This document shows positions 11,584 to 56,945 of a stretch of 57,447 nucleotides of DNA, in pieces. Under the pieces are notes generated by a model. It did not search any database and was not told the origin of the DNA. It worked only from the letters and a program-made list of their open reading frames with translations. How positions within the stretch are numbered: position 1 is the stretch's first letter; each line of letters starts with the position of its first letter. Made by a program: the position numbers and the translations under genes. The stretch is from Prorocentrum cordatum (taxonomy: Eukaryota), in contig CAUYUJ010000024.1 in NCBI GenBank assembly GCA_963575745.1, positions 62,001 to 119,447 of the forward strand. The letters are read 5' to 3'.

Positions 11584-14500
11584 TATTCCCCACATGCTTA
11601 GTGGGGTTCTGGTTTTCTTCCCTGCCGCGTCGCACCCGCGTCTCACCTCACACCTCCCCTCCTCCTCACAGCACTGCTCAGCACAGCTCAGCTCAGCTCA
11701 GCTCAGCACGGCACAGCTTAGCACAGCTCAGCTCAGCTCAGCTTAGCACAGCACAGCACAGCGCAGCACAGCACAGCTCACCGCAGCACAGCACAACACA
11801 GCACAGCACACAGCACAGCACAGCACAGCTCAGCTCAGCACAGCACAGCGCAGCTCAGCTCAGCTCAGCACGGCACAGCTTAGCACAGCTCAGCTCACCG
11901 CAGCACAGCACAGCACAGCACAGCACACAACACAGCACAGCACAGCACAGGCGTGGCACAGGCGTGGCACGCATGGCATTTCCTCGGCACCGCAGGGGGG
12001 GAGCTGTGGGTGGGGACGCTATCCGCTTCGGGCTCGCAAAGCGTGGCAGGCGTGGCACTTCCTCGACACCACAGGGGGGGAGCTGTGGGTGGGGACGCTA
12101 TCCGTTTCGGGCTCGCAAAGCGTGGCAGGCGTGGCACTTCCTCAACACCACAGGGGGGAGCCGTGGGTGGGGACGCTATCCGTTTCGGGCTCGCAAAGCG
12201 TGGCAGGCGTGGCACTTCTTCGACACCACAGGGAGGGAGCTGTGGGTGGGGACGCTATCCGTTTCGGGCTGGCGTGGCACTTCCTCGACACCACGGGGAG
12301 CTGTGGGTGGGGACGCTATCCGCTTCGGGCTCGCAAAGCGTGGCAGGCGTGGCACTTCCTCGACACCACAGGGGGGGGGAGCTGTGGGTGGTCTCCCTAT
12401 CCGTTGCGGGCTCGCACAGCGTGGCAGGCGTGCAACTGCCTCGACAACACATTTGTTTGGAGTAGCTGTGGAGGGGAGGCCTATCCCGTCCTCCTCTCCC
12501 GCAAGCGTGGCATGGCAGCTAGGCTGCCCCTTCCTCGGGCACCACAGGGTGGGAGCTGCGGGTGGGGACGCTACCGTTTCGGGCTCGCAAAGCGTGGCAG
12601 GCGTGGCACTTCCTCGGCACCACCTTGGGCGAGCGTTGGGTGGTGGACGCTATCCGTTTTTCGGGCTCGCGAAAGCGGTGGCAGGCGTGGCCTTCCTCGA
12701 CACTGCCAACCATGGGGGGGAACTGGGGTGGGGGACGCTCATCGTTTCGGGCTCGCAAAGCTTGCAGGCGTGACCGTCCTCGCACCCCCGGGGGGGGAGC
12801 TGTGGGTGGGGACGCTTTCCGTTTCGGGCTCGCAATGCGTGGCAGGCGTGGCACTGCCTCGACACCACATGGGGGTGAGCTGTGGGAGGGGACGCTATCC
12901 GTTTCGGGCCCGCAAAGCGTGGCAGGCGTGGCACTTCCTCGGCACCACAGGGGGGGAGCTGTGGGTGGGGACGCTATCCGTTTCGGGCCCGCAAAGCGTG
13001 GCAGGCGTGGCACTTCCTCGGCACCGCAGGGGGGGAGCTGTGGGTGGGGGCGCTATCCGCTTCGGGCTCGCAAAGCGTGGCGGGCGTGGCACTTCCTCGA
13101 CACCACAGGGGGTGCGCTGGGGGTGGTCTCCCTATCCGTTTCGGGCCCGCAAAGCGTGGCAGGCGTGGCACTTCCCTGCCGCGTCGCACCCGCGTCTCAC
13201 CTCACACTTCCCCTCCTCCTCCTCCTCCTCACAGCACTGCTCAGCACAGCTCAGCTCAGCTCAGCACGGCACAGCTTAGCACAGCTCAGCTCAGCTCAGC
13301 TCAGCACAGCACAGCGCAGCGCAGCACAGCACAGCTCACCGCAGCACGGCACAGCACAGCACACAGCACAGCACAGCACAGCTCAGCTCAGCACGGCACA
13401 GCGCAGCGCAGCTCAGCCCAGCACAGCACAGCACAGCACAGCACAGCACAGCACAGCACAGCACAGCTCACTGCAGCACGGCACAGCACAGCACAGCACA
13501 GCACACAACACAGCACAGCACAGCACAGGCGTGGCACAGGCGTGGCAGGCGTGGCACTGCCTCGATACCACAAGGGGTGAGCTGTGGGTGGGGACGCTAT
13601 CCGTTTCGGGCCCGCAAAGCGTGGCAGGCGTGGCACTTCCTCGACACCACAGGGGGGGAACTGTGGGTGGGGCCGCTATCCGTTTCGGGCTCGCAAAGCG
13701 TGGCAGGCGTGGCACTTCCTCGACACCACAGGGGGGAGCTGTGGGTGGGGCCGCTATCCGTTTCGGGCTCGCAAGGCGTGGCAGGCGTGGCACTTCCTCG
13801 ACACCACAGGGGGGAGCTGTGGGTGGGAACGCTATCCGTTTCGGGCTCGCAAAGCGCGGCAGGCGTGGCACTTCCTCGACACCACAGGGAGGGAGCTGTG
13901 GGTGGGGAAGCTATCCGTTTCGGGCTGGCGTGGCATTTCCTCGACACAACAGGGGGGGAGCTGTGGGTGGTCTCCCTATCCGTTGCGGGCTCGCAAAGCG
14001 TGGCAGGCGTGGCACTTCCTCGGCACCACAGGGAGGGAGCTGTGGGTGGGGACGCTATCCGTTTCGGGCTCGCAATGCGTGGCAGGCGTGGCACTTCCTC
14101 GACACCACCTGGGGGGGAGCTGTGGGAGGGGACGCTATACGTTTCGGGCTCGCAAAGCGTGGCAGACGTGGCACTTCCTCGACACCACAAGGGGGGAACT
14201 GTGGGTGGGGACGCTATCCGTTTCGGGGGGCTCGCATGCGTGCAGGCGTGGGCCTTCCTCGCGACACCACAGGGGGGTTGTGGGTGGGGACGCTATCCGT
14301 TTTCGGGCTCGCAAAAACGTGGCAGGCGTTGCACTTCCTCGACCACACCCGGGGGGGAGCACACCACAGGGGGGAGCTGTTGGGGGGGACGCACTATCCG
14401 TTTCGGCGCGCAAAAGCGTGGCAGGCGTGGCACTTCCTCGACACCACCGGGAGGGAGCTGTGGGTGGGGACGCTATCCGTTTCGGGCTCGCAATGCGTGG

Positions 14501-15424
14501 CAGGCGTGGCATTTCGTCGACACCATAGGGGGTGCGCTGGGGGTGGTCTCCCTATCCGTTGCGGGCTCGCAAAGCGTGGCAGGCGTGGCACTTCGACACC
14601 ACAGGGGGCGCGTTTGGGGTGTTCTCCCTATCCGTTGCGGGTTGCACAGCGTGGCAGGCGTGGCACTTCCTCGGCCCCACAAGGGGTGCGCTGTGGGTGG
14701 GGACGTTATCTGTTTCGGGCTCGCAAAGCGTGGCAGGCGTGGCACTTCCTCGGCACCACAGGGATTGCGCTGGGGGTGGTCTCCCTATCCGTGACGGGCT
14801 CGCAACGCGTGGCAGGCGTGGCATCTCCTCGACACCACAGAGGGTGCGCTGGGGGTGGTCTCCTTATCCGCTGCGAGCTCGCAAAGCGTGGCAGGCGTGT
14901 CACTTCCCCGACACCACAGGGGATGCGCTGGGGTTGGTCTCCCTATCCTTGACGGGCTCGCACAGCGTGGCAGGCGTTGCACTTCATCGGCACCACAGGG
15001 GGTGCGCTGGTGGTGGTATCCTTATCCGTTGCGGGCTCGCAACGCGTTGCAGGCGTGGCACTTCCTTGGCACCACAGGGGGGGGCGCTGGGGGTGGTCTC
15101 CCTATCCGTTGCGGGCTCGCAAAGCGTGGCTGGCGTGGCACTTCCTCGACACCACAGGGTGTGCGCTGGGGGTGGTATCCTTATCCGTTGCGGGCTCGCA
15201 AAGCGTGGCAGGCGTGGCACTTCCTCGACACGACAGGGGGTGCGCTGGGGGTGGTCTCCCTATCCGTTGCGGGCTCGCAAAGCGTGGCAAGCAATATGGC
15301 GTTGGATGACACATAGGGAAACATTCGCGACGAGGGCTCAGAACGCAGGATTGCGCATATATTAAAAACATAAGCAAGCACATCATATTTAAATCAAGTA
15401 TGTGGGGTTCTTCGGTAGCGTAGT
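11584..15424. mobile_element. Satellite-carrying non-autonomous element (Helentron/DINE-1-like), copy 2, complete
   Basis: Subterminal inverted repeats CCCCACATGCTT (11588-11599) and AAGTATGTGGGG (15396-15407); left-end stem-loop CCCCAC-7nt-GTGGGG; inserted between two Ts with no TSD; excision restores the triplet phase GGT GCT GAT|TCT GCT GAT. Confidence 0.65.
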
Positions 15425-36100: not shown

Positions 36101-38840
36101 TACAATGTGGCTGCCTCAGGCGACTCCAGAGCTTCATGAAGAAACATAACAGCCCAATGGGCCGTGCCCCGCCCGTCGGTTTGTCCAAGAAAACCACATT
36201 GGTCAGGAACATGAGTACCGAGGTAGGCTCAACTTCGAACAGCGTTACAATCTCCAGGAGTCGCATCTGGTGACTCTCGGGCAACTGCAAGACCCACCTA
36301 GGGTGAAAACCATCCCAGCCCAATCCAGCACCTGGACTATACTTGCGGCATACTCGCAGCAAGTCTGAGAGCCGAAAGGAGGCGAGGTCAGGTTCACCTG
36401 GTGGTATGTCTCAAGTGGAAGGGCGAGGTCCACGACCGTCAACTTGCCACAAGGGGGGCGACTGCTGCAGTAAACGACGCAGCGCGGCCTGTCCAGCCGC
36501 TGGAAGATCTTCGCCGTCGCCGCCACGCCCAGAAAGACACGACACCTGCTTCTTCGAAAATGCGTGGGCGGCCTTGCCCCCTCCAGCTACAGCCTTCTTG
36601 GCCCAGGTCTTCCACTTGGCCTTCTGTTCCGCCGCGTCCAGCTTTTGGCGACGAGAAACCTCAGTGTCGAGCGCCTCGAAGGTCCCGTCCTCAGAGGTCC
36701 CCGGACTGGTTGCCAAGACGACCATCCCCTGGAGAGAAGTCTTGCCCACGCTGCCGTCCTGGAAATCCAGGTCCTGGATGATAGCCTTGAGTTTGGCACT
36801 CCGGGCGCCGAGGAGCTGCTTACCCTTGGCCCCAGGGGTCCCGCGGGCGATGGTGCTCGCTTTCCTGATCAGGGTCCCAAAGGCCGTCCAGGGGGTGGTC
36901 TGCGCCGAAAACCTTCGCCGCACGCTTCGTCCCAGCAGCGCTGAAAGAGGGGCCCTCTTGGTCTTGGGCACTGCCGTGCGGCCAGCATAGGCCCTGCCGT
37001 CCTCGACCCTGTGAATCTCCAAAAGACGGCGCCCAGCCTCGGAAAACCACTCCTTTCTAGCCAATCAAATCCGTGCTCGAGGGGGTCTGACCACTCAACT
37101 GCATGCTCGTCTGGGAGGGGGCACATTACCGTCATGTCGAACGGCTTGAAACGCACTTGCTGGTCCACGATCGTGGACGCGCTGAGGTCTCTCATCTGCA
37201 AGACAACAGGGCTGTGGGGAAAAAGCGGAGCCTCGCTGACTACCTGCACCTCGCCAACGCAGCTAGCGATCGCTTTGCTCACAACGAAGTAATCCAAGAT
37301 CGACCTCCCTTGTCATGAACTACTAGCCCTCCTTCTCCTCCCTCCTGCTGACTGCGCTGCGAAGGCAAGCGCGTAGCCGAATCGGGGGCAGCCGTGACGC
37401 CGTGCACGTGCTCGACCCAACCCGACAGCGCCAAGGCATCAGGCGTGACATTCCAGTCGGCCTGCACTACCCAGGCACGCGTGCTGCGCAGGAAGATCGC
37501 ACCTAGAATCTCGAGGATCTCTAAATTCTCCCCTGCGACACCTATGTCGTTGGTGAGATAGACACTGTATACCTCCAAGCCCGTCGGGAACCCTATGTTG
37601 ATCAGCCTGCCTGTTATGCGGCCGTCGAATTGCCCAAGACTTGGGAGCTCCAGATGACTTGATCCTAACTGAAAGTCCACCAATATGCCTACTCCTCCAG
37701 AGCTCTGCAAAGGCCCACTCCCAGTAGCCAGCGCCTTGCCCAGAGACAAGCGATAGCTATGAGACGTAGCCCAACTCTCGGCCCCAAGAATCTTGTCCGC
37801 AGCTTTCAACCTGGCCTCCTGAACCGTCACGATCGGAAACTTTCCCTGACGCACTTGCGGCCCCCAAGGGCTGGACTCGCTTTTAGCCGATAGGTCCCTG
37901 AACCAGTTGGCCACAGTGTCTGTCGTAGTCCAGGAGTTCACGTTCATGCCAAGTAAAAATAAATCAGCTGGTGGCGCGTGGTCCGATTCAGCTAGAATAT
38001 TACGATCAGGCACGCCCGCTCTATGCTCGAGGCCATGCCTGTCGGATTTTGACCGTGGTATTTTCGAAGCCGCATCAAGCTCCACTTGGGGAAGAGGGAT
38101 TGCACCATCATGTAAGTGCTGCGTCCGCAAAACTCCCTGCCCCCCCTCCTCACGCGCTGGCGCCCCCGCCTCCTGTGGAAGGGGTGCCCTGGAGGAGGGC
38201 GGGGTGGGTGGCGACTGAAGGGCCTGACGGGGAGAACCTCCGCCGCCAGGGCCTGGCGGCGGCTCCGCGTCCCGACGCCAAGCGTAGGACCAGTCGACGC
38301 AGAAGCTGCCGCCGAGGGAGGTGCCGCTGATGAGCCTGCCGAAGCCGACGGAGTCCCACACCCCGGAAGCCTCGAAAATGTCGCCGAAGACCCTGCCGCC
38401 GATGACAACGTGCCTGAAGCCACCGCGCTGCGTGTACTTGTCCCCCACCCCGAGGAGCGGGCCAGCGGGGGAAAGAAAGCGCCGCCCGTAGTCGCCGCAG
38501 GACCAGTCCACGACAAGGTACTCATCGACGATGTGGGCAAGGAGGTGTGACTTTGAGGGGCTGAATCCCCCCCCCTCCTTGCCCTGAGCAACGCTTACTG
38601 TGCGCGGTGCCCCACGCCGCGAAGGCGATCCCGACGACGCCAGCGTTGGCCAAGCCCGAGGGCCCAGCAAGCCGCCACCGCCTGCGGGTGCCAAGCCCCC
38701 ACGCTTCACGACTGGCGCGCCCAGCGTTCCCGAGATTGCCTGGGCAGGCCTCGGGCGAAGGGCAGGCACTGCAAGGCCAAGCGCCTCGCTCCAGCCCACG
38801 TCCACGACGTTACAGCTCCAGAAGCGGTCGAGCGCGTTGT
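33172..38840 (-). pseudogene. LINE-A ORF2 (AP endonuclease, reverse transcriptase, zinc knuckle, RNase H), frameshifted
   Basis: APE: MNVNSW, VQEAR, ADWN, DYFVVS, PHSPV. RT: GWDGF, LDKPTGGARPIGL, LDLAKLYENV, VAGCSGAT, VVDD, RNLG. Zinc knuckle CQLC..HRQYEC. RNase H: FLDGS, QTSKDGED, LYID, KTKAH, NQHADTFAK. Split across ORFs 37279-, 36869-37297, 36411-37064, 34269-36362, 34049-34324 and 33172-34152. Confidence 0.9.
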
Positions 38841-39898
38841 CAAAGACGCCGCGCTCTCTTGATCCCCAGAGCTGCCGCTGCCTGAGCGTACTTGTGCTTG
38901 GCGGCCTCCTGCTCCTCTCCTGGCGCGGCAGCTCGAAGTTCTTCTCCTGCCTTTCGGAGGTCCTCCGTCCGCTGCTCCAGGTCGCCATCCTCCAGCAGCT
39001 CCATGTCGATGTCGTCGCCATCCCCGTCCGCAGCTGCAATCTCCGCGCCATCGGCTCGTGCCCCCCCTGAGCCGCTGCCGCGCTGGGAAACACCCCCAGA
39101 AGCACTACCGCCAGGCACCAGCGGAGGAGGCCCCTGAGATGCTGCCTTGAGGTCGAGCGCCTCCTTCTGGAGCTTCTGCAAGACTGCGAGAGCTGTCTTC
39201 GCCTGCTCGTTGTCGAGGACCGAGGGCTCAAGCGCTGCCGAAGTGACCTTGACCACGTCATTGATGTCATTCGCGTGCACCCGAGAGTAAACCCTCTCCG
39301 CCACTGTGAGCTCCTTCCTGAGCTCATCCAGCGTCGTGGTGATCGTGGCCTCCTCTTCGAGCAGCTGCTTGCGGCGCTCCTCCAGCTTCCTCTGCAGCTG
39401 CTCCTGCTTCTCGATCTTCTTGCGCAGGCCTTCAACCCTCCAGCGAGCCGTCTGGACCGTCGGAGGGTGCTCCACCTGGTCCTGGGCCTGCTTCTGGGAG
39501 GTCGCTTGCACCACTGAATCCTCAAACTTCTTCTCCTTGAGGAAGACGAGGACGTCCTTGTACGACAGCCCGCTCGATGCGTTGCCTGCCGCTGGCTGCT
39601 GAGCCTGCGGAGGCTTGTCTCGTGCAAGGAGGCTGTCGATCTGCTTCTGCATCGCCGCGATGGTCTTGGCAGAGGTGCTGGCATTGGGCCCAGGCGGACC
39701 GCCCTTGCCGCCGCCGCCTCCTCCGCCTTTGCCACCTCGGGCCTGCTTGGCTGCCTGCTAGGCGGCTTGCACGGCTCTCTGTGGCGCTGAGTTCCCACAC
39801 TGCCGACAGCGAATGCGGGAGGCCCAGTTGTCGTACGTACCACACTTGCCGCACCCCCAACGAGGGAGGTGCGGTCCTGGAAGGACATCAGGCCCCAT
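38840..39898 (-). pseudogene. LINE-A ORF1: RanBP2-type zinc finger plus coiled coil, one in-frame TAG
   Basis: WGCGKCGTYDNWASRIRCRQCG. ORFs 39758-39988 and 38840-39652 share a frame and are separated by TAG at 39758-39760. Confidence 0.8.
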
Positions 39899-39994
39899 CC
39901 ACGCGGCGTCTTGCGCAGGGGGCGAACGTTTGGCTCGTGCCCACGAGCCGTTTCGAAGTACGTGGGCACAAGCTCGAGCTTTCCTCACAGACAG

Positions 39995-40016
39995 CTTGAG
40001 CCAAAATGGCTACGGA
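39995..40016 (-). other. Dinoflagellate spliced leader, perfect 22-mer, at the LINE-A 5' end
   Basis: Reverse complement reads TCCGTAGCCATTTTGGCTCAAG = consensus DCCGTAGCCATTTTGGCTCAAG. Confidence 0.97.
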
Positions 40017-41013
40017 GGAGGAGGAGGAGGCTGTTGAGGAGGAGGAGGAAGAGGAGGAAGAGGGGGAGGAGGAGGAGGAGGAGAGAGGAGGAGGAGGAGG
40101 AGGAGGAGGAGGAGGAGGTGGAAGAGGAGGAGGAGGAGGAGGAGGAGGAGGAGAGGAGGCGAAGGGGCAGGGGATCGGCTGAGGAGGAGGAGGGAGGCGG
40201 AGGAGGAGAGAGGAGGAAGGAGGAGGAGGAGGAGGAGGAGGAGGGGGAGGAGGCGAGGAGCGAGGAGGAGGGGGTGGAGGCGGAGGGCAGGGAGGCGGAA
40301 GGAGGAGGCGGAGGAGGAAGAAGGAGGAGAGAGGAGGAGGAGAGGAGGAGAGGAGGAAGGAAAACAGGAGAAGGATGAGAGAAGAAGTGGAGGAACAGGG
40401 GGGAGGCACTGCTGCGCAGAGCCAAAGAACGTTGACAGTCCGCCCCCGCGCCGCGCGGGCCCCCGCGGCGCGGGCGGGCGTCCGGCCGTCGCGAGAGTGG
40501 GGCCCCCCCTGGACGCCCCTGGGGGACCGTTTCCAGAGGGGGGGAACCTTCCTCTCTCCTCCTCCTCCTCCTCCTCCTCCTCCTCCTCCACCTCCTCCTC
40601 CTCCTCCTCCTCCTCTTTATCTTGTGGGGTCATCCTCCTCCCTCACTCCTCCTCCTCCTCCTCCTCCTCCTCCTCCTCCTCCTCATTCCATCTCCTCCTC
40701 CTCTCCTTCCCCTCCCCCTCCCCCTCCTCCTCCTGCTCCTCCTCCTCCTCCTCCTCTTCCTCCTCTTCTCCTCCTCCTCCTCCTCCTTCTCCTCCCCCTC
40801 CTCCTCCTCCTTCTCCTTCTCCTCCTCCTCCTCCTCCTCCTTCTTCTTCTTCTTTTCTTCTTCTCTTCTTCTTTATTATTATTATCCTCCATCTCCTTCT
40901 CCTTCTCCTCCTCCTCCCTCCTCCTCCTCGTTCTCCTCCTCCTCCTCCTCCTCGTCTCTCCTCCTCCTCCTCCTCCTCCTCCTCCTCCTCCTCCTCCTCC
41001 TCCTCCTCCTCCT
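40017..41013. repeat. (GAG)n tract then (CCT)n tract around a short GC-rich spacer
   Basis: Directly visible; similar tracts at about 16170-16455, 19320-19680, 24650-24830, 26530-26705, 27410-27850, 45873-46375 and 50670-52550. Confidence 0.95.
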
Positions 41014-41126: not shown

Positions 41127-41326
41127 GACGGCCGCGGCCGGCCCGCCCCTAGCGGGGCCATGGGAAGAGGATGAATGACCAGGGAGGAAAGGAGGATAAC
41201 GGGGGTGGGACGGAGCAGGGGGAGGGAGAAGGAGGAGGAGGAGGAGGATTCGCTGAGGATTCGCTCGCAACGGATAGTCGAATCGGCCGAAGGCGAGGCG
41301 ACTACGCTCGAAAACGGAGGTGCCCT

Positions 41327-44300
41327 TCATCCCAGGCCTGTCCTGGGCAATCTGAGGCCTCCGAAACACTGATTCGTGGTGGGGTGTCTGCCCTGCCACA
41401 AACGGTTCAAACTCCCAGCAAGGACCCGAGGATTTCCCCCTGGACAGCTGGTCCTTAGACCCCTCCATCGGCTTGTGGCGTACCTTGCGCACTTCCGACA
41501 GAATACTACCGCTTGAAGGCGCACCGTCTGGTGGCCTTCGGCTTGGGCCCGCTGGATCAACACTCCGAGCCCCACGGGAGGCCAAGGAGGGGGGGTCCAC
41601 AGGGCCCTGTGAGGGCGGTGGAGTGCCAGCTGGGCTCTCCACTCCCTCACTGGGCGTCGGGGCGGGGGCGGGGCTGCCTTGGGCCCCAGAGGGCCCAGGG
41701 CCCTCGGAGGTGACCTCGAGCCCGTGGCCGAGAACCCCGACGTGCGCGGCGAATTCCAGAATATCTGAGACCAACTGGAGCCTCTGGACATACGCGGCCC
41801 GGTACCAGGCCTCGTGCCGGTGCATTTGCGCCCCACGCTTTGCGCAGGCGTCAGCTAGTTTATTCCCAATGAACTGCTGGGGCCCTATCATGGCTCTTTG
41901 GGCCCTAGTGGCGTGGGCTCGGACTTTACAAAAGCTTATCCCTTGCTCACCTGTCCCGCCGTTTTCCTGCACGAGCCGCCAGCATTCCTGCCAGACCTCT
42001 TTGTGGGTCGTGTCAGCTCTGGCGGCCCGCTCGGGGCCTCTGGCGACGCCGTCGATCACCGACTGGCGGTCGCTGTAGACCCGCACTGGAGGCTCCGCCC
42101 TCATCGGGGCCTGGAGGACCGCTGCCAGCTCGCTCTTGTAGATCGACTGGTCGTGCTGCGATCCCTCCAGTGGCCCGAACAACGCAAACTCCTTCATGCG
42201 CTCGCTGTCGAGCTTCACGACGGCCCAGCCGTCTGTGTAGATGTCCCCGTGCACGAGGCCGTCGAAGGTGCCCTCCACCTCGCATGTGGATGAGGAGGGC
42301 AGGCTCCAGAGGTCATACTCCAGCGCTGGGTCCGCTGCGAGCCCTCTGCCCCAGAGCGCCTCGGAGGTCGCGCGCTGCTTCTCCGTCGCTACAGGCCACG
42401 TCATGGCACCACGCTGGCATATGTGGTGCCCTCCCACTCGTCGTCGGTGATCCTGCCTGGCTGAGCACACGAACGTCCTGTGGCGGTCCGTCCCTTCGTG
42501 CTCGTGGCAGGCCTTGCATATGCTGTCCTCTGCGGCACCCTTGTCGAAGAGCCGCCGCTGCGGCCAGGTGCCGCCGCACCACAGGTTGCGCACCCGTGTC
42601 TGGTGCTCCAGAGTCCACTTCTTGGTCAGCGGCCTCTTGAGCAGCGCGGCGACGAGCTCCACGAAGAGGCTGTCCAGGCCGTGCTTCTCGCCGTGTATGC
42701 GCAGCCAGTCGCTCATGAGGCCGTTCTCCGTGGCCGCGCTGATGCGCTGCCTCAGGTGTCTGAGCGGCAGCGTCCTGAGGTCTAAGTGCTCGTCGCCGAT
42801 GGTGATGCTGTGGGCCGCGAGCGTCTTCCAGCCCAGCCTCTGCACCGTGGAGATGAAGGCCCCTGCGGGCCCTTGCACCTTCTGCCATGGGGCTCTGGCT
42901 CGCCCCACACGTATTACCCACTTCTTCCACGCATTCTGGAGCTGCGCCTGGAGGCCGTCCTGGTTGGCTACCTCCTGCCACGCCATGGCCCAGTTGACCA
43001 GTGGCTCCGTGTTGGCGCGGATGGCGGGGTCGGCGCCCTGCGCGAGCAGCGTGAGCGGCGACGATCTCCCCATGGTGTTACCCCTGAATGAGGTCGCCAC
43101 GCTCTGCCGCAGGGACGCAAGGGTGGAGTTGGGCATGCCCACGACCTGCACCCCGTACATCGCCGACGGCACCTTCCCCTGTCTGATGAACGCCTGCGCA
43201 GGTCCCCCTGCTCGGCGTATGCGGGCAATGCGATCTCGCCTTGCTGGCCCTCTTGCTGAAAGCGCTAACTCGTCTCCTCCTGCCGGCCGCGGTGGTGACG
43301 CCGAGGTGGCTGGCGTGCCTCACCATCCTGATGCCGAGCGGGTGCACTCTCTTGGCGAGGCCGTCCTGCAGCGCGGTGGTCGAGGCCATGGTGACCGTCT
43401 TGCCCTCCGCGCCCTCTGCTCCTCGCTCTCCGTGCGTGGTGACCTACTGCCGCCATTGCGCTGCGGCCGCTCGGTGCACCATCTTCCAGTACCTCCTGCT
43501 GGCGGGGTCCAGCAGCGTGGCAATGAGGCCCAGGTAGTTCTGGGCGCGCTCGTCGATGTCTGTGACTCGCCAGTCTCGCAACGTGTGTACGGTGAGCGGC
43601 CAGCGAATCGTATTCCAAGTATTGGGGTCCTGCTGGCCCTCGGTGGGAGGCGCTCTGACCGCGAAGCGGTCCTGTACCCCTTCCGCCTCCTCCCGAGGGG
43701 CGTCCTCAGACTCCAGCAGCCCGTCCTCCTCGCCCGTGTCGTAGCCTGCCTCGGCCGTCTGCCCAGGTGCCCGCTCCGCGAACAGTGGCATGACGACGTC
43801 GTGGCTGAGTAGCTGCTCCTGTGCCGCGGTGCGGGGCATGGGCCTGCGCGGCTTCTGCTTGTAGTTGGCCTTCTCGAAGTGGCCCTGTCGCTTGCCCCAG
43901 TCGTCGCCCTCGAAGCTGTGGTACCTGTTGAGGTGCTTCCCGTAGGCCTCGCCGAGCTCGCTCCAGTGGCCGTCGATCTGGCTCTGAGTGTACTTCCTGT
44001 GTGCGAGCGGCCTTGGCCATCGCACTGGCTGCGAGGGGCCGCCCGTTGGCCGCGTCAGCGGCCATGGCGTCCGCTTGCACAGCACGTTCATCATGTAGTC
44101 GCTCTGCTGGTGCACTGGGACCCTCATCCTGACGGGCAAGTGCGGCGACATGTTGCATCCTTCTTGGACCTCTACCTTGAGCGTGTGTGCAGCCAAGCCG
44201 CGCGAGACGATGAAGTAGTCACGCGTGCTCCTCGTGTCATCCTGCTTCAGGCAGCTGCCCTGCTGAGTGTCTCGCACGATGACGCCGTTCATCTTGCGGA

Positions 44301-44820
44301 CGATCTCGGACTGCTCCAGCAGCTCTGGGTCCATGTTGAAGTCGTCATCGAGGATCCACTCCTTCTGGATCACATTCATGGCGGCGCCCCACTTGGCCAG
44401 GATACGCTGGGTTTTCTGCGTGAGGCCCTCGCTGTTCCACAGGTACGCGGTACCTAGCACGAGCCCCTCCTTGTTGTAGGCGCCGACCCAGGCCACGGCG
44501 AGTCTCCCCTTGGACTCTCGCGGGCTGATGTCCCACTGGTTGATCCCCTTGCGCACGAAGTCCATACCCCTACTCCGTGGCGTCGCTATCAAAACTCCAG
44601 CGCTGTGACCAGCTGTGGTCTTCGCGCTGCTCACTACACCGATGTTCCAGCCCTCTCTGCGCATGCGGGTCTGGAGAAGGTCGAGCTGCGTGCCGCTGGC
44701 GATGGCGTCCTGGTCGCTGTCCCTGATCTGCTTCATCACTCGATCCAGCGACCTCACCGTGTTGGCGTTGACCGTGTACACGGCGAGTCGCCCCTTCGGG
44801 CAGCGGCGGTTGATGCCGCC
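41327..44820 (-). pseudogene. LINE-B ORF2 remnant (APE, deleted RT, zinc knuckle, RNase H)
   Basis: VYTVNANT, DDFN, RDYFIVS, SPHLPV; stop at 43444-43446; SHLG, PSAMYG; CKAC..HRTFVC; IYTDG, KSELAAV, VYSD, KVRAH, GNKLADACAK; FCRKC...RLWQGRHP. Frameshifts near 43240 and 41600. Confidence 0.88.
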
Positions 44821-51605: not shown

Positions 51606-54239
51606 ACTGGCGCCGCCACGACCACTCGTGAGCCATACCGGCCTCTTCCGCCAGCCCTCGTCAGTGTGCTTGAATTGCAGCACTGCTTCCCAGATTTCTG
51701 TCGGTACGACCGAGAAGGTCAACAACTACGGCTGTGAATGCAGTTCGGTGACGCTGCCATTTCGTTTGTGAGAACACGACGGAACCACACCTATATGTCG
51801 AAGACGCCTACAGACAATTTCCGCAGCCCCCTGCTATTTCGAATCGCCCATGTGGCCGAGCATTGTGGCAAAAGCTCTGCCAAGCTGTCCGACCATGTGT
51901 TCCCCCCAGCCGTTGTGGAAACTTTTTGAGGAGCGAACATATTGGGGGAGGATGGCGGGCAAGATCAGGAGCTGGAGAAGGAGGAGGAGGAGGAGGAGGA
52001 GGAGGAGGAAGACGAGGAGGAGGACAGGGAGGAGGAGGAAGGTGGAGGAGGAAGAGGAGGAGGAAGAGGAGGACGAGGGAGGAGGAGGGAACAAGGCAGG
52101 AGAAGAGGTAAGGAGGAGGAGAAAGACGAGGATGAGGAGAGGGAGGAGGAGGGGAGGCGGAGGAGGAGGAGGAGGAGGAGGAGGAGGTGGTGGAGAGGTG
52201 GAGGAGGAGGAGACGCGAGGAGGGAGCGCGAGGAGGAGGAGAGGAGGAGGAGGAGGAGGAGGAGGAGGAGGAGGCGGAGGCGGAGGGAAGACGAAGGTGG
52301 GAGGAGAGGGAGGAGGAGGAGGAGGTGGAGGAGGAGGAGGAGGAGGAGGAGTGAGAAGGAGGAGGAGGTGGAGGAGGAGGTAGGAGGAGGAGGAGGGGAG
52401 GACGAGGAGGCGAGGAGGACGAGGAGGCCGAGGAGGACGGGAGGAGGATGAGGAGGAGGAGGAGGAGGACCAGGAGGAGGGGAGGAGGAGGAGGAGGAGG
52501 AGGAGGAGCAGGAGGAGGAGGAGGGAGGAGGAGGAGAAGGAAGACGAGGAGGGGACATCTTTGGAGCCTCTGGGGGGGCACTCTTGGGGCCTCCTGGGAG
52601 CTTCCTGGGGGTCTCTTGGATGTATCTTGGGGGCCTCCTTGGGCCTCTTGGGAGCCTTTGGGGGCTTCTCGGGGGCGTCTTTGGCTGTCTTTCATGGCCC
52701 GTCTGACGCCGTCGGCAGCCCTCTTGGGTGCCTTTCTGGGCCGACTTGGGGCCCTCTTTGGGTGCTCCAGGGCCGCCTTCGAGGCCAACTTGGGCGTCTT
52801 GGAGGCCTCTTGGGCCGTTTTGGGGCCCTCCTGGGGCCGTTTTGGGGGCCTCCTGGGCCATTCTAGGGCAATCTTAGAGGCCTCTTGGGCGATCTTGGGG
52901 CAATCGTTGGGGGCTCTTGAGCCTTCTCGGGCCGTCGGAAGGCCGAGCAGAAGCATATGCCAACATCCTTCCAACAACCTCAGGAACATCAGTCATGTTG
53001 GCCTCGTTGGGCCTTCCTGGAGGCCCTCTTGGCGGCCTCTTGGGCGGTCTTGGAGGCCTCTTGAGGGCCTCTTGGGCCGTCTTAGGCAATCTTGGAGCCA
53101 TCTTTGGCCTTCTTGGTGGGCTCCTGGCCCGCCTGACTCCGTCGGCAGCCATCTTGGGGTCCTCTCTGGGCCGACTTGGTGCCCTCTTGGGTGTCACAGG
53201 GCCTTCTTGGATGCCAACTTGGGCGTCTTGGAGGCCTCTTAGGTCGTCTTGGGGCCCTCTTGGGGCCATTTTGGAGGCCTCCTGGGCCGTTCTGGGGCCA
53301 TCTTGGAGGCCTCTTGGGCGATCTTGGAACGATCGTTGGGTGCTCCTTGGCCGTCTCGGGCCGTCAGAAGGCCGAAAAGGAGTAAATGCCGAAATCCGGC
53401 AAAAACCACATGACAATCATTGATTTTGGCCTCTTCGGGCCTTCTGGAGGCCCTCTTGGGGGCCTCTTGGGCCGTCTTGGGGGCATCTTGGGGGCCTCAT
53501 GTGCCGTCTGCCGTCGTCTTGAGGCCATCGTGGGACGTCTTGGAGGCGTCTTGGTTGGACTTGGAGGTATCTTGGACATTTTGAGGCCATCTTGGAGGCC
53601 ATGCTGAGCCATCTTGGGCGAACGTGGAGGCCATCTTGAGCTTGGAGGCCGTCTTGGAGGCGATGGGGATTTTGTCTGCGAGTTGTCCGCCTTCGGTGTG
53701 GCCGGCGCGCTAGGCCGGATCCCCAGAGGGAGTTCTTTCGAAAAAGAGCCAAAATCAAACCACTAGGATCTAGCACGCCAGGCACCCCTGTGGCAAGACC
53801 ACAGGGGGCGGCGGATGACGGAAAGCGCGCGAAGCGTCGCGATCCGATAGTCGGGAGAAATAACAGATGGAGGGTGGGGGGGTAGGCAGCCCGGGACCCA
53901 GGACGGCCCAAATGGGCCCCAGGACGGCCCACAAGAGCCCCCAAAGGACTCCCAGGAAGGCCAGAAAATACATTTTTTTTATTTTCGCAAGGTTGGTTGC
54001 TAGATGTTCGTACGTCGTACCGAAGCCTTAAGACCAACAGGGCTCCAACAGGGCCCCCCAAAGGAGCTCCCAAAGGCAAGAATCGCCCCTTTTCCCTTGG
54101 GAAAATTTGGTTCTTCACAGCGTCCAAGATTGCCCAAGAGGCCCCCAAGACCGCCCCAAGACGGCCCAAGAGGCCCCCAAGAGGGCCCCAAGACGGCCCT
54201 ACTGGGCTCCAAGACGGCCCAAGAGAGCCTCAAGACGGC

Positions 54240-54260
54240 CCGTAGCCATTTTGGCTCAAG
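54240..54260 (+). other. Dinoflagellate spliced leader (21 of 22 nt) at the 5' end of the psbF retrocopy
   Basis: CCGTAGCCATTTTGGCTCAAG, ending 66 nt upstream of the ATG. Confidence 0.97.
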
Positions 54261-54326
54261 CCCTTTTTTTCCGCAGCGCGCCCGCGCTCCGCCCTCGCAC
54301 GTTCGCCCCCCGCCGCTCGGGCGCCG

Positions 54327-54719
54327 ATGGCGTTCCGCTGCCTCGCGCTGGCCGCCCTGGTGGGCGGCGCTGCCGCCTTCGTGCCCGCGGCCCCGGCCGC
54401 GGCGCGCGCCGAGCCCGCGGGCGTGGCCCAGCGCACTGGGGCCGCGCCTTCGGGAGCCCCCGCGGCCGATGACGCCGCCCCGTGGTCGACCTGCCTGGTC
54501 GGCGGCGCGGCTGTGGGCTACGCGGTCGCGGCGGCGAGCGCGTTTGGCCGCTCGCAGCGCACCGCGGCGAGGGCGGAGGCGAAGCCGCAGATTGCGGCGG
54601 CGAGGACGCCCGTGGCCTACCCGATCTTCACCTTCCGCTGGCTGGCGGTGCACATGCTGGCCGTGCCGACCGTCTTCTTCTTGGGCGCGATCAGCTCCAT
54701 GCAGTTCATCCAGCGCTGA
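54327..54719 (+). CDS. psbF: Nucleus-encoded cytochrome b559 beta subunit precursor (photosystem II), intronless retrocopy
   Basis: C-terminus [33 protein letters not shown] is the PsbF signature with the haem-ligand His. N-terminus has a signal peptide ending AAA|FVP, a transit peptide, a hydrophobic segment and an Arg-rich stretch, as in peridinin plastid presequences. Confidence 0.96.
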
Positions 54720-56945
54720 GCAGGCGGCCTCAGGGGGGCGCGCGGGTGCCCCGGTGTGGTGTTTTTGGTGCAGAGGCGGCGACGGGGGGGGGCTCGCGGC
54801 GGCCGCGGTTCGCCTCCATACGCCGGCGCGCGCAAGAAAAAGAGAACCTCAGGACGGCCCAAGGGAGGCTCCAGATTCCCAAGAGAGCTCCGAGAGGGCC
54901 ACAGGAGGTCTCCAAGAGGGTCCCTGAGGGACCCGAGAGGGCCACAAGACACCCCTAGCCCCCCAAGACGGCCCGAGAGGGCCCCAGGACGGCCAAAGAG
55001 GGCCCCAAGACGGCCCAAAAGAGCCCCAGAAGCACCCCCAGGAAGACCGGAAAACGCAGTGTCCATTTCTTTTCGCACAACTATTTGCTAGACTTTTGCA
55101 TGTCGTGCCAAAGCCTTGACACCAACAGGGCTCCAAGACACTAAGCCAACGACCTCGCACCCACACAAAGTATACGCACTTTCCGTCCCCGTGCTGAGCA
55201 GGTGACGGAAAGCGCGCGTGGCGTGCGATCCGTTGGCCGGAAGGAATTGAACTAGGGGGGTGCAGAGGGGATGGCATCCGCAGCCCGTGGGTTTAATGGC
55301 CCTAGTTTCCTCCCAAGAGGCCTCCAGAGGCCTCAAGATAGTCGTAGACGGTCCAAGACGGCCTCCAAGACGGCTCCGGAGGGATCAAGAGGCTTCCAGC
55401 TTCGCCCGAGATGCGTCCAAGACGGCCCAAGACGCCTCCAAGACGGTCCAAGAGGCCTCCAAGGCGCCCCAAGAGGTTTCCAAGGGGCCTCCCAAGAGGG
55501 CCAACAGAGGCACACATCATGGATTTCTGATGGTTTTTGAATGGTTTGTACGGTTCTCGCCTTTTCGGCTCCCCGACGCTCCAAGATGGCCCCAGAGGCC
55601 AGATCACTCCACGACGGCCCAAGAGGCCCCCAAGACTGGCCCAAGTCGGCCGAAGAGGGCTGCCAGACGGCCCCAGGACGGCCCCAGAGGTCTCCGAGAC
55701 GGCCCGAGAGGCCCCAAAGACGGCTCCAAGGGGGTGCCCAGACGGGGTGCCCGCACGGTCTTTTCTGGCCCTCGGCCCCAGGGGGCCCCAAGAGGCCCCT
55801 AAGAGGCCCCCAAGAGGCACGCGAGGAGCGATGAGAGGGAGGAGGAGGAGGAGGAGGAGGAGGAGGAGGAGGAGGAGGAGGAGGAGGAGGAGGGACTGTT
55901 GGGGACATCTCGCACTACGGGTTCAATTCAATTTTTCATCGGTTTGAGATACGCATAACCAACACCCCCACAAAGGCGCGGAGAAACCACACCGATATAT
56001 TCTCGGAGCCCCCGAAGAGGCTTCCATTAATCCCCTGATGATCATTCCAGGAGATTCCAAGAGGTATCCAACACGCCTCTCATTCATATACCGTTGGTTT
56101 CATTCGCCCTACCTGCGGTATCAATAAGCATCAGTTTCCTCCCAAGAGGCCTCCTGCGGTCTTGAGATAACCAAGGACAGCGCCGAGATGCCACCAGGAT
56201 GCCCAAAGAGACCTTCTGGATGGGAAGACGGGAAGATAGAGGGGCGGAACGGACAGGCCAGCGATTTGCTGCGTTCTGAAAACAACTACGCCTTCCGTCC
56301 CCGTGCCAAGCAGGTGTAATGGCCTTCGGCCCATCCCGCCACCGTGCCTTGGTTTTTGGGTATGAAGCCTATTGGATGTTCGTTGGGATCTCGTGGGGAG
56401 CCTCTCGGGGGCCTCTTGGCGGTAGTTTGGAGGCCTCTTTAGGGCCGGTTCGGGGCCTGCTGGGGCTTCTTTTGGGCCTCTTGGGGCCTCCTGGGGGCCT
56501 CGTGGGGCGGAAGGCCAGATTTTCGGTTCGTGTTCTGTCTCTTGGGCCCCTTCTGGGGCTGTCTTGGGGCCCTCTTGGGGCCCTCTTGGGCCGTCTTGGA
56601 GCCCTCTTGGGCCGTCTTGGGGCGCTCTTACGCCGACTTGGGGCCCTCTTGGAAGCCTCTTGGGCCGGTATGGGGTGGTCTTGGGGACCTCTTGGGCCGT
56701 CTGAGAGCGCCGGAAAGCCGAAAAGGCGAGAACGCCCAAGGCTTTCAAACTGAGGCAATTCAAGATGTTTGCCCCTTTGGGGCCCTCTAGGGAGGCCTCT
56801 TGAAGGCCTCCTGGGTCGTCTTGGAGGCTTCTTGGGCCGTTGTGACGTCATCTTGGGCGTCTGGAGCCAGCCTTTGGGCGTCTCGGGGCCCTCTTGGACC
56901 GTCTTGGAGGCCGCTTGGGGCCCTCTTGGCCCGTCTTGGGGTCTT

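What the first reader, a model, noticed from the sequence alone, without database searches (positions are those of the whole stretch)
39995..40036. Full-length LINE capped by a perfect spliced leader: possible promoter-less retrotransposon exploiting trans-splicing
Seen: the element starts with the exact 22-nt SL, a single copy with no tandem relic, about 96 nt before ORF1, directly after a (CCT)n tract and inside a TSD. Known: dinoflagellate mRNAs receive this SL by trans-splicing at an AG. So the inserted RNA was trans-spliced and copied to its cap end. Inference: upstream pyrimidine-only CCT plus the SL's terminal AG rebuild a trans-splice acceptor at every insertion. Read-through RNA would then be cut and capped to regenerate the exact 5' end without an internal promoter.
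Basis: partly seen in the sequence, partly recalled or inferred. Interest (0 to 1): 0.85.

Follow-up and report, generated by a model that had tools for sequence, protein, structure and literature searches.

The report
Spliced-leader-capped LINE retrocopy in a dinoflagellate

Summary
An exact 22-nt dinoflagellate spliced leader (SL) lies on the minus strand at 40016-39995. It is a single copy with no relic, 96 nt before an ORF1 ATG. Upstream lies 384 nt that is 94% pyrimidine, (CCT)n-rich. A 19-nt target-site duplication (18 of 19 identical) occurs only at the two ends of a 6,877-nt element. The element is an APE-type non-LTR retrotransposon: ORF1 with a RanBP2-like zinc finger and coiled coil, then endonuclease, RT and RNase H. 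It is full-length in extent but not in coding: ORF1 has an in-frame TAG and ORF2 at least 4 frameshifts.

The inserted RNA was therefore trans-spliced and copied to its 5' end. The self-renewing acceptor idea is not supported. The CCT tract is target DNA. A second, open SL-headed LINE of the same architecture (L258) has (AG)n upstream. In a third locus, an ORF1-like gene carries SL plus two 15-nt relics, which means re-splicing at CCGTAG|, not CTCAAG|.

Best reading: an ordinary consequence of universal SL trans-splicing plus LINE target-primed reverse transcription. It extends the known SL-tagged retrogenes to the LINE itself and points to this LINE type as the retroposition machinery. No other copies from this genome and no RNA data could be examined.

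The parts
40018..40036 (-). 5' copy of the target-site duplication, CAACAGCCTCCTCCTCCTC. One further base (C, 40017) lies between it and the SL.
   Evidence: one of only two perfect matches to the 19-mer in the window.
39995..40016 (-). Complete 22-nt dinoflagellate spliced leader (TCCGTAGCCATTTTGGCTCAAG) encoded in DNA; the 5' end of the element.
   Evidence: SL consensus as quoted in PMC5585692 (passage seen).
39899..39994 (-). 96-nt 5'UTR. It contains a 13-bp-stem hairpin at about 39973-39933.
   Evidence: fold z-score -2.8 to -3.1.
38840..39898 (-). ORF1, 352 codons. It has an N-terminal RanBP2-like zinc finger (39859-39797), a Gly-rich linker and a coiled-coil region. An in-frame TAG at 39760-39758 interrupts it.
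   Evidence: Pfam Zn_ribbon_RanBP scores 22.5 bits, below the cut-off of 27. The 270-aa part is 85% identical to a protein named Prorocentrum cordatum by its source.
37282..38112 (-). Start of ORF2 with the apurinic/apyrimidinic-type endonuclease domain (best match about 37923-37414).
   Evidence: Pfam Exo_endo_phos 25.4 bits against a cut-off of 24.5. tblastn of relatives covers 37944-37306.
34269..37303 (-). Middle of ORF2 with the reverse transcriptase (RVT_1 match about 36182-35484) and the CxxC..H..C knuckle after it. Frameshifts lie near 37305 and 37070.
   Evidence: RVT_1 26.8 bits, cut-off 29.6; E 5e-6; 2,655 relatives at E<=1e-3..
33172..34340 (-). End of ORF2: the RNase H region, broken by two frameshifts around a TA-rich insert (about 34340 and 34250-34225), then a C-terminal CxxC domain. 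Stop TGA at 33174-33172.
   Evidence: A relative, P0021, has Pfam RNase_H.
33140..33171 (-). 32-nt 3'UTR ending in ...CCCCAA. It runs into CAACAA with no poly(A). The boundary with the TSD is ambiguous by multiples of CAA.
33121..33139 (-). 3' copy of the target-site duplication, CAACAACCTCCTCCTCCTC.
40037..40400 (-). Rest of the (CCT)n-rich pyrimidine tract upstream. It is flanking target DNA, not part of the element.

Best explanation
This is a retrocopy of a mature, SL-trans-spliced mRNA of an APE-type non-LTR retrotransposon.

Shown:
- The DNA copy starts with the whole 22-nt SL, joined exactly where trans-splicing joins it.
- It runs 6,877 nt through ORF1, endonuclease, RT and RNase H.
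- It is bracketed by a 19-nt target-site duplication, as target-primed reverse transcription leaves.

Inferred:
- The source locus was transcribed by the host, probably as part of a longer transcript. Its RNA received the SL at an AG just before CTGTCTG, as any dinoflagellate mRNA does.
- The element's own proteins nicked a CAACAG site inside a CCT-rich stretch, where the RNA's (CAA)n-like 3' end could pair.
- Reverse transcription reached the capped 5' end.

The SL is thus a passive stamp of host mRNA processing, not a device carried by the element, and the CCT tract is simply the landing site.

This particular copy has since decayed (one nonsense codon, at least four frameshifts). If it is transcribed by read-through it would most likely be re-spliced at CAACAG| or CCGTAG|, giving SL plus relic as in other recycled dinoflagellate genes. 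Because every insertion carries AG acceptors inside its SL, such LINEs need no promoter of their own to be re-expressed wherever host transcription passes. That dependence is likely for the clade but is not shown for this copy.
For: - Exact SL, 0 expected by chance, with the junction directly at CTCAAG| and no SL-gene intron after it.
- The 19-nt TSD is found only at the two ends.
- EN, RT and RNase H homology is colinear with four relatives.
- There is no terminal repeat and no second copy in the window.
- L258, from another organism, has the same layout: microsatellite, SL, 93-nt UTR, ORF1 with Zn_ribbon_RanBP at 31.1 bits, then an open frame with Exo_endo_phos at 37.8 and RVT_1 at 45 bits.
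- The zinc finger is invariant in four SL-headed ORF1s.
- The same window holds an SL-headed psbF-like retrogene with an A-rich 3' end and a 13-nt TSD-like repeat, so SL-mRNA retroposition with TSDs is active in this genome.
- Relics in 11 of 152 SL instances start after CCGTAG. This matches the published recycling model (passages of PMC3229502, and of PMC12014239).
Against: - Only one copy of this family could be examined, so the source locus, the family's usual 5' end and its target preference are unknown.
- The TSD is two-thirds simple repeat and has one mismatch.
- The RVT_1 and RanBP scores for the window copy itself are below Pfam's cut-offs (26.8 against 29.6; 22.5 against 27).
- The frameshifts could partly be assembly errors.
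- The link of L015 and L057 to LINEs rests only on ORF1 architecture (zinc-finger alignment E 0.001).
- One base (C, 40017) between TSD and SL is unexplained.
Confidence: 0.8

Rival explanations
1. First reader's model. The element has no promoter and renews itself exactly. At each insertion an upstream pyrimidine tract plus the SL's terminal AG (CTCAAG|) forms a trans-splice acceptor, so read-through RNA is cut and re-capped to the same single-SL 5' end.
For: - The copy has a single SL without a relic. This is what exact replacement would leave.
- The 384 nt upstream are 94% pyrimidine.
- 141 of 152 non-viral SL instances show no relic, which is compatible with this model.
Against: - The tract is target DNA, including the TSD.
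- L258 has (AG)n and L057 has (AATGT)3 upstream.
- All 11 readable relics start after CCGTAG, including the two in front of the zinc-finger ORF of L015.
- CTCAAG| is the third AG after the tract.
- A single SL is equally what a first-generation copy of an SL-less source would show.
Confidence: 0.08
2. The DNA-encoded SL acts as a promoter. Its TTTT/TTTG motif would be the dinoflagellate TATA-like box, so the copy is transcribed from within or just after its own SL and then trans-spliced.
For: This was proposed for retrogenes in general (PMC5585692 and PMC6050394, passages seen). Here the SL lies 96 nt before the ATG, within the -50 to -100 zone those papers stress.
Against: The same papers note that relic ladders in ESTs argue for upstream transcription. 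L015's two relics need transcription starting upstream of the SL.
Confidence: 0.07
3. A composite. Either an SL-tagged retrocopy of a host zinc-finger gene happens to abut a 5'-truncated LINE, or reverse transcriptase switched templates from LINE RNA onto SL RNA.
For: ORF1 has no Pfam hit above cut-off and only 2 database relatives. No ORF1-ORF2 fusion protein was found (weak).
Against: - One TSD brackets the whole 6.9 kb.
- L258 shows the same order, SL, zinc-finger ORF1, EN, RT, in one contig.
- A switch onto SL RNA would copy its intron part too, as in U6-L1 chimeras (recalled), whereas the junction is exactly the exon end.
Confidence: 0.03
4. A site-specific LINE inserted into an SL RNA gene, as SLACS/CRE/CZAR do in trypanosomatids and NeSL-1 does in nematodes, using that gene's promoter.
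For: SL sequence lies at the element's 5' boundary.
Against: - The whole 22-nt exon precedes the element.
- Upstream is a microsatellite, not an SL gene promoter.
- The 3' flank continues the CCT target (TSD), not the rest of an SL gene.
- No RNA family match was found in the window.
Confidence: 0.01

Closest known systems
DinoSL-tagged retrogenes, or 'mRNA recycling' (Slamovits & Keeling 2008, recalled; described in PMC3229502, PMC5585692, PMC6050394 and PMC12014239, passages seen)
   Same: A DNA-encoded SL at the 5' end of an intron-free copy shows reverse transcription of a trans-spliced mRNA. Re-expression adds a new SL at the AG of CCGTAG and leaves 15-nt relics (seen here in L015 and others).
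   Different: The cargo here is the retrotransposon itself, with its own EN and RT and a clear TSD. The cited papers treat the reverse-transcribing machinery as unknown, and PMC6050394 leans to LTR elements. Song et al. noted only that the GO class 'RNA-dependent DNA replication' is enriched among SL-tagged genes.
Genome-encoded SL exons fused to transposable elements in Schistosoma mansoni (PMC5832876, passages seen)
   Same: This is another SL-trans-splicing organism in which retrotransposon copies carry the SL. The authors suggested they are trans-spliced, retro-transcribed elements.
   Different: That case involves six cases, not resolved to element ends or TSDs, and the authors could not exclude assembly chimeras. 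Here the ends, the TSD and a second independent example are defined.
SL-gene-specific LINEs: SLACS, CRE1/2 and CZAR (trypanosomatids), NeSL-1 (C. elegans) (recalled)
   Same: These are non-LTR elements whose 5' boundary touches SL sequence and which depend on host SL biology for expression.
   Different: Those elements insert inside SL RNA genes at a fixed position and have a restriction-like endonuclease. This one has an APE endonuclease, sits in a microsatellite, and carries the complete SL as part of its copied RNA.
L1Tc/ingi Pr77 internal promoter (PMC1874656, title and abstract start from the search listing)
   Same: It is a LINE in an organism where host mRNAs are trans-spliced.
   Different: By that abstract, L1Tc brings its own internal promoter and gives unspliced transcripts. 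The element here was demonstrably trans-spliced, and no promoter is known for it.
Microsatellite-targeting LINEs (Kibi, Koshi, Mino, Waldo; Kojima & Fujiwara, recalled)
   Same: The insertion lies in a simple repeat, with the element's short-repeat 3' end matching the target (CAACA).
   Different: Target specificity is not shown here. There is one copy, and simple repeats are common in this window.

Membership tests
APE-type non-LTR retrotransposon (LINE) | Reverse transcriptase domain of the non-LTR type | tested here: met
   RVT_1 E 5e-6, at 26.8 bits just under the cut-off of 29.6. There are 2,655 relatives at E<=1e-3, the nearest with RVT_1 above cut-off. The alignment to four relatives is colinear.
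APE-type non-LTR retrotransposon (LINE) | N-terminal apurinic/apyrimidinic-like endonuclease in ORF2 | tested here: met
   Exo_endo_phos 25.4 bits against a cut-off of 24.5 for 37282-38112.
APE-type non-LTR retrotransposon (LINE) | Target-site duplication and no terminal repeats | tested here: met
   The 19-nt TSD (18 of 19 identical) is found only at the two ends. blastn of the element against the window found only the element itself.
APE-type non-LTR retrotransposon (LINE) | Assignment to a named clade (L1, I, Tad, R1, CR1 ...) by RT phylogeny | not testable with these tools
   No reference LINE library is held. A profile of the family found no solved structure at E<=0.01. The domain order EN-RT-knuckle-RNase H is given.
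DinoSL-tagged retrocopy (recycled mRNA) | SL sequence encoded in genomic DNA at the 5' end of the transcribed unit | tested here: met
DinoSL-tagged retrocopy (recycled mRNA) | A parent copy without SL, or transcripts with a new SL plus relic | not testable with these tools
   No genome is held and no related locus was found.
SL-gene-specific LINEs (SLACS/CRE/NeSL) | Insertion inside an SL RNA gene, with the gene's two halves as flanks | tested here: not met
   The flanks are CCT-rich target DNA with a TSD. Rfam found nothing.
RanBP2-type zinc finger (Pfam PF00641) in ORF1 | W-x-C-x2-C-x(n)-N-x(n)-C-x2-C zinc ribbon scoring above Pfam's cut-off | tested here: inconclusive
   The window ORF1 scores 22.5 bits, below 27. 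L258 ORF1 scores 31.1 bits, above 27. The motif is invariant in 4 of 4 aligned ORF1s.

The most novel reading that the evidence does not exclude
Dinoflagellate LINEs of this clade (zinc-finger/coiled-coil ORF1, then EN, RT and RNase H) carry no promoter at all. They live on host read-through transcription plus SL trans-splicing, and every full-length insertion brings along, inside its copied SL, the AG acceptors that let the next RNA be capped again. L015, with SL plus two relics, would be three such rounds. The same elements would be the long-sought machinery behind the massive SL-tagged retrogene recycling of dinoflagellate genomes, such as the psbF-like copy with a TSD 14 kb away.
Probability: 0.3. 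Interest if true: 0.8.

Novelty: new variant of a known kind. Interest (0 to 1): 0.55.

Why it matters
Dinoflagellate genomes are full of genes copied back from spliced-leader-capped mRNAs. The papers I read say the enzyme source is unknown and lean to LTR elements (PMC6050394, PMC5585692). Three things here bear on that:

- An SL-capped LINE with defined ends and a TSD.
- A second, open example from another organism.
- A neighbouring SL-capped retrogene with a TSD-like repeat.

Together they give a concrete candidate machinery. They show that LINE RNA itself passes through the host's trans-splicing pathway. They also make the promoter-less life cycle testable by a simple census of 5' ends and by 5' RACE.

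My three literature searches listed no paper describing SL-headed LINEs in dinoflagellates. The nearest is a brief note on Schistosoma (PMC5832876).

Tried and rejected
- **Whole genome:** none is held.
- **Sequencing runs for 38800-40016:** none was listed, so no reads could be laid and nothing can be said about expression.
- **Earlier notes of this scan:** nothing on this genome or on look-alike sequence.
- **Other copies in the window:** blastn found only the element itself.
- **Related loci:**
  - ORF1 in metagenome contigs: 313 pattern hits, none confirmed.
  - RT alignment A1: too diverse to search with.
  - RT alignment A2 in genome contigs (163 pattern hits) and viral contigs (76): none confirmed.
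- **ORF1 homologues:**
  - Near-length search: 2 hits.
  - Longer, fused forms: none, which is weak evidence.
- **RT homologues, near-length search:** 1 hit.
- **tblastn of the element's pieces against SL-bearing loci:** only the zinc finger hit L015. In one search the endonuclease piece was mis-framed; this was corrected.
- **Pfam on ORFs downstream of metagenomic SLs:** 80 of 129 ORFs were sent. The 49 left out were duplicates and overlapping alternative frames. No RVT_1 was found.
- **PDB profile search:** nothing at E<=0.01.
- **Rfam on the window:** nothing.
- **5'UTR structure:** not shared by L258 or L015.
- **Rejected readings:** SL-gene insertion, template switch onto SL RNA, and retrogene-plus-truncated-LINE composite (see rivals).

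Full report
**What is there**

Read on the minus strand, 40016-39995 is TCCGTAGCCATTTTGGCTCAAG. This is the 22-nt dinoflagellate spliced leader as quoted in PMC5585692 (passage). The 21-nt core, allowing up to 3 mismatches, occurs twice in the 57-kb window against 0.00 expected. The second copy (54240-54260, + strand) heads a psbF-like gene. After the SL comes CTGTCTGTGAGG with no relic. The first ATG of a zinc-finger ORF lies exactly 96 nt further on (39898).

Upstream, 40017-40400 is 94% pyrimidine, (CCT)n-rich, with only two AG dinucleotides.

The 19-mer CAACARCCTCCTCCTCCTC has exactly two perfect matches in the window: 40036-40018, one base before the SL, and 33139-33121 (0.01 expected). 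The plain CCT 13-mer occurs 376 times, so the CAACA(G/A) part makes this a credible target-site duplication. The two copies bracket 6,877 nt.

**The element**

The three reading frames, Pfam and tblastn of four relatives give the following layout:

| Part | Coordinates | Notes |
|---|---|---|
| ORF1 | 39898-38840 | RanBP2-like zinc finger (22.5 bits, below the cut-off of 27), Gly-rich linker, coiled coil |
| ORF2 endonuclease | from about 37944 | Exo_endo_phos 25.4 bits, cut-off 24.5 |
| ORF2 RT | within 36266-34269 | RVT_1 26.8 bits, cut-off 29.6, E 5e-6 |
| After RT | down to stop at 33174-33172 | CxxC..H..C knuckle, RNase H region, C-terminal CxxC domain |
| 3'UTR | 33171-33140 | 32 nt, ends in CCCCAA and runs into CAACAA; no poly(A) |

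The RT family is large: 2,655 representatives at E<=1e-3, and 140 at E<=1e-30. Near relatives carry Exo_endo_phos and RVT_1, and one carries RNase_H. It matches no solved structure at E<=0.01, so I could not place it in a named LINE clade.

The copy is not intact. ORF1 has an in-frame TAG at 39760-39758. ORF2 changes frame near 37305, 37070, 34340 and 34250-34225, the last two around a TA-rich insert. Assembly errors could account for some of these.

The 270-aa part of ORF1 is 85% identical to a protein that its source names Prorocentrum cordatum. This suggests, but does not establish, the organism.

**What the SL means**

The join lies exactly at the SL exon's 3' end, the flanks are target DNA, and there is no SL-gene intron or RNA-family match. 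The SL was therefore put on the element's RNA by trans-splicing and then copied. That excludes insertion into an SL gene. It also argues against a template switch onto SL RNA, which would bring intron sequence (recalled from U6-L1 chimeras).

The G/A difference between the TSD copies sits in CAACA(G/A), next to the element's CAA-repeat end. A simple reading (inference) is that the RNA's 3' end paired with the nicked CAACAG site and that part of the 3' CAACAA was templated by the RNA. On that reading the landing site was chosen through CAACA. The CCT run is merely where that motif happened to lie. (CCT)4-or-longer runs cover 3.9% of this window, and Tandem Repeats Finder lists over a dozen such tracts.

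**Other SL-headed elements**

I therefore scanned three collections for the exact SL:
- IMG/VR: 119;
- GTDB genomes: 20.

A profile of the RT family, run over all six-frame segments of the 264 loci, hit one locus, L258 (E 8e-91). L258 is a 9-kb contig binned into a bacterial MAG, and its layout is:
- (AGAGAGAC)n/(AG)n at 1-116;
- SL at 117-137;
- a 93-nt UTR;
- ORF1 at 231-1340, with Zn_ribbon_RanBP at 31.1 bits and a coiled coil;
- a frame open from 1358 to the end of the locus, holding Exo_endo_phos (37.8 bits) and RVT_1 (45 bits).

Its RT is 28% identical to the window's, so it is an independent family with the same design and an unbroken ORF2.

Of 263 SL instances with at least 300 nt downstream, three are followed by an ORF with this zinc finger: L258, L015 and L057. 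The finger's W, C, C, N, R, C, C are invariant in the four-way alignment. L015 and L057 are short contigs that end before any ORF2. Their link to LINEs rests on architecture only (zinc-finger alignment E 0.001).

**Test of the self-renewal idea**

L015 reads SL + CCATTTTGGCTCAAG + CCATTTTGGCTCAAG and then a 115-nt UTR. That is three rounds of splicing and copying with the acceptor at CCGTAG|.

Among 152 non-viral SL instances with at least 40 nt downstream, 6 have an exact abutting 15-nt relic and 5 a near-exact one. All begin at or within two bases of CCATTTT. This is the pattern described in the literature (passages of PMC3229502, and of PMC12014239).

The sequences before the SL differ among the four zinc-finger elements: (CCT)n here, (AG)n in L258, (AATGT)3 in L057, and a mixed pyrimidine-rich stretch in L015. 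In the window itself, a read-through RNA would meet CAACAG and CCGTAG before CTCAAG.

Exact replacement at CTCAAG| would leave no trace in DNA and cannot be excluded. A single SL is equally what a first-generation copy of an SL-less source would show.

**Simple repeats before DNA-encoded SLs**

Simple repeats lie directly before a DNA-encoded SL more often than expected. This held for 8 of 146 non-viral instances with at least 26 nt upstream, against 3 of 730 random 24-nt windows from the same loci (Fisher p 5e-5). The repeats are of many kinds: GT, CT, AG, TCA, GGGT, ACAG. This points to where such copies land or how their 5' junctions form, not to a pyrimidine requirement.

**Context in the window**

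Directly upstream on the same strand lies the remnant of another, unrelated LINE:
- endonuclease at 44775-44005;
- post-RT region and RNase H at 43208-41805, with RNase_H at 28.5 bits;
- 3' end near 41250, also followed by a CCT-rich stretch.

It has no recognisable SL.

The psbF-like retrogene (SL 54240-54260, ORF 54328-54720) ends in AAGAAAAAGAGAA. It is flanked by CCTCAAGACGGCC and CCTCAGGACGGCC inside a satellite. This is a second SL-headed insertion with a TSD-like repeat.

**Literature**

I read passages, not whole papers.
- PMC5585692 and PMC6050394 state that the machinery of dinoflagellate retroposition is unknown. They note enrichment of 'RNA-dependent DNA replication' among SL-tagged genes, propose the SL's TTT(G) as a promoter, and (PMC6050394) lean to LTR elements.
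- PMC12014239 attributes retrogenes to retrotransposons in general.
- PMC5832876 reports six genome-encoded SLs merged with transposable elements in Schistosoma and suggests trans-spliced, retro-transcribed elements.
- PMC10666404 (P. cordatum genome) mentions dinoSL only in transcripts. Its supplementary note and tables, which I did not open, might bear on repeats.
- Searches listed no paper on SL-headed LINEs in dinoflagellates.
- SLACS/CRE/NeSL-1, microsatellite-targeting LINEs and the first-AG rule are recalled, not checked.

**Verdict**

The trans-spliced origin and full-length copying are well supported (0.8). The specific self-renewing acceptor mechanism is unsupported (about 0.08).

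The finding extends a known phenomenon, SL-tagged retrocopies, to the LINE itself. It also offers a named candidate for the retroposition machinery. I rate this as moderately interesting rather than startling, since any translated dinoflagellate mRNA is expected to carry the SL.

Noticed in passing
window 54227-54861 (+): A second DNA-encoded SL (54240-54260) heads an intron-free psbF-like (cytochrome b559 beta) ORF with an N-terminal extension (54328-54720). The 3'UTR ends in AAGAAAAAGAGAA. It is flanked by CCTCAAGACGGCC and CCTCAGGACGGCC (12 of 13 identical) inside a CAAGACGGCC-type satellite. It looks like an SL-tagged retrogene made by target-primed reverse transcription. Pfam gave no family for the ORF; the psbF call is from reading the C-terminal sequence.
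   Followed up: partly
window 41250-44775 (-): Remnant of a different LINE lies directly upstream of the SL-LINE on the same strand. It has an endonuclease (44775-44005) and a post-RT region with RNase H (43208-41805). The RT core is apparently missing and no SL is recognisable. Its 3' end is also followed by a CCT-rich stretch (41245-41180).
   Followed up: partly
window 39933-39973 (-): A 13-bp-stem hairpin in the element's 5'UTR (fold z-score about -3). It is not shared by L258 or L015.
   Followed up: partly
L127-L245 (IMG/VR, mostly giant-virus MAG contigs); also L002, L017, L018, L043, L047, L061: AT-rich (median 20% GC) giant-virus contigs carry the exact DinoSL 21-mer many times. There are 121 unique instances. 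117 are preceded by A, after AT-rich sequence. 111 are followed by an ORF of at least 80 aa within 400 nt (median 49 nt). Nearby genes include DUF4116, PolX, RecQ and FtsJ. This looks like host-leader mimicry built into viral genes. This scan noted it earlier (e1-5545970). Searches listed no paper on it.
   Followed up: partly
L258 1-8137: A GC-rich eukaryotic contig with an apparently intact SL-headed LINE (ORF2 frame open for 2,260 codons) is filed in a bacterial MAG. It is probably a mis-binned dinoflagellate contig.
   Followed up: yes
SL-bearing loci L019, L054, L059, L096, L116, L249, L258, L260: Microsatellites of various kinds abut the 5' side of DNA-encoded SLs 14-fold more often than random windows (8 of 146 against 3 of 730). 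The cause is unknown. It could be target preference of the retroposition machinery or 5'-junction repair.
   Followed up: partly
L073 2835-4817 (-): An ORF with an NCLDV major-capsid domain (62.7 bits) lies on a GC-rich contig that also holds two DinoSLs. It could be an endogenised or retro-copied giant-virus gene in a dinoflagellate.
   Followed up: no
L056 51-989 (-): SL, then 110 nt, then a 313-aa ORF ending in a CCHC zinc knuckle (27.3 bits). It may be a gag or ORF1 of another SL-headed retroelement. The contig ends there.
   Followed up: no
window 1-15300 and 6852-11527: Long arrays of a 79-nt satellite flanked by (CACAG)n, and a 4.7-kb imperfect (ATG)n tract. Overall the window is very rich in tandem repeats.
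   Followed up: no
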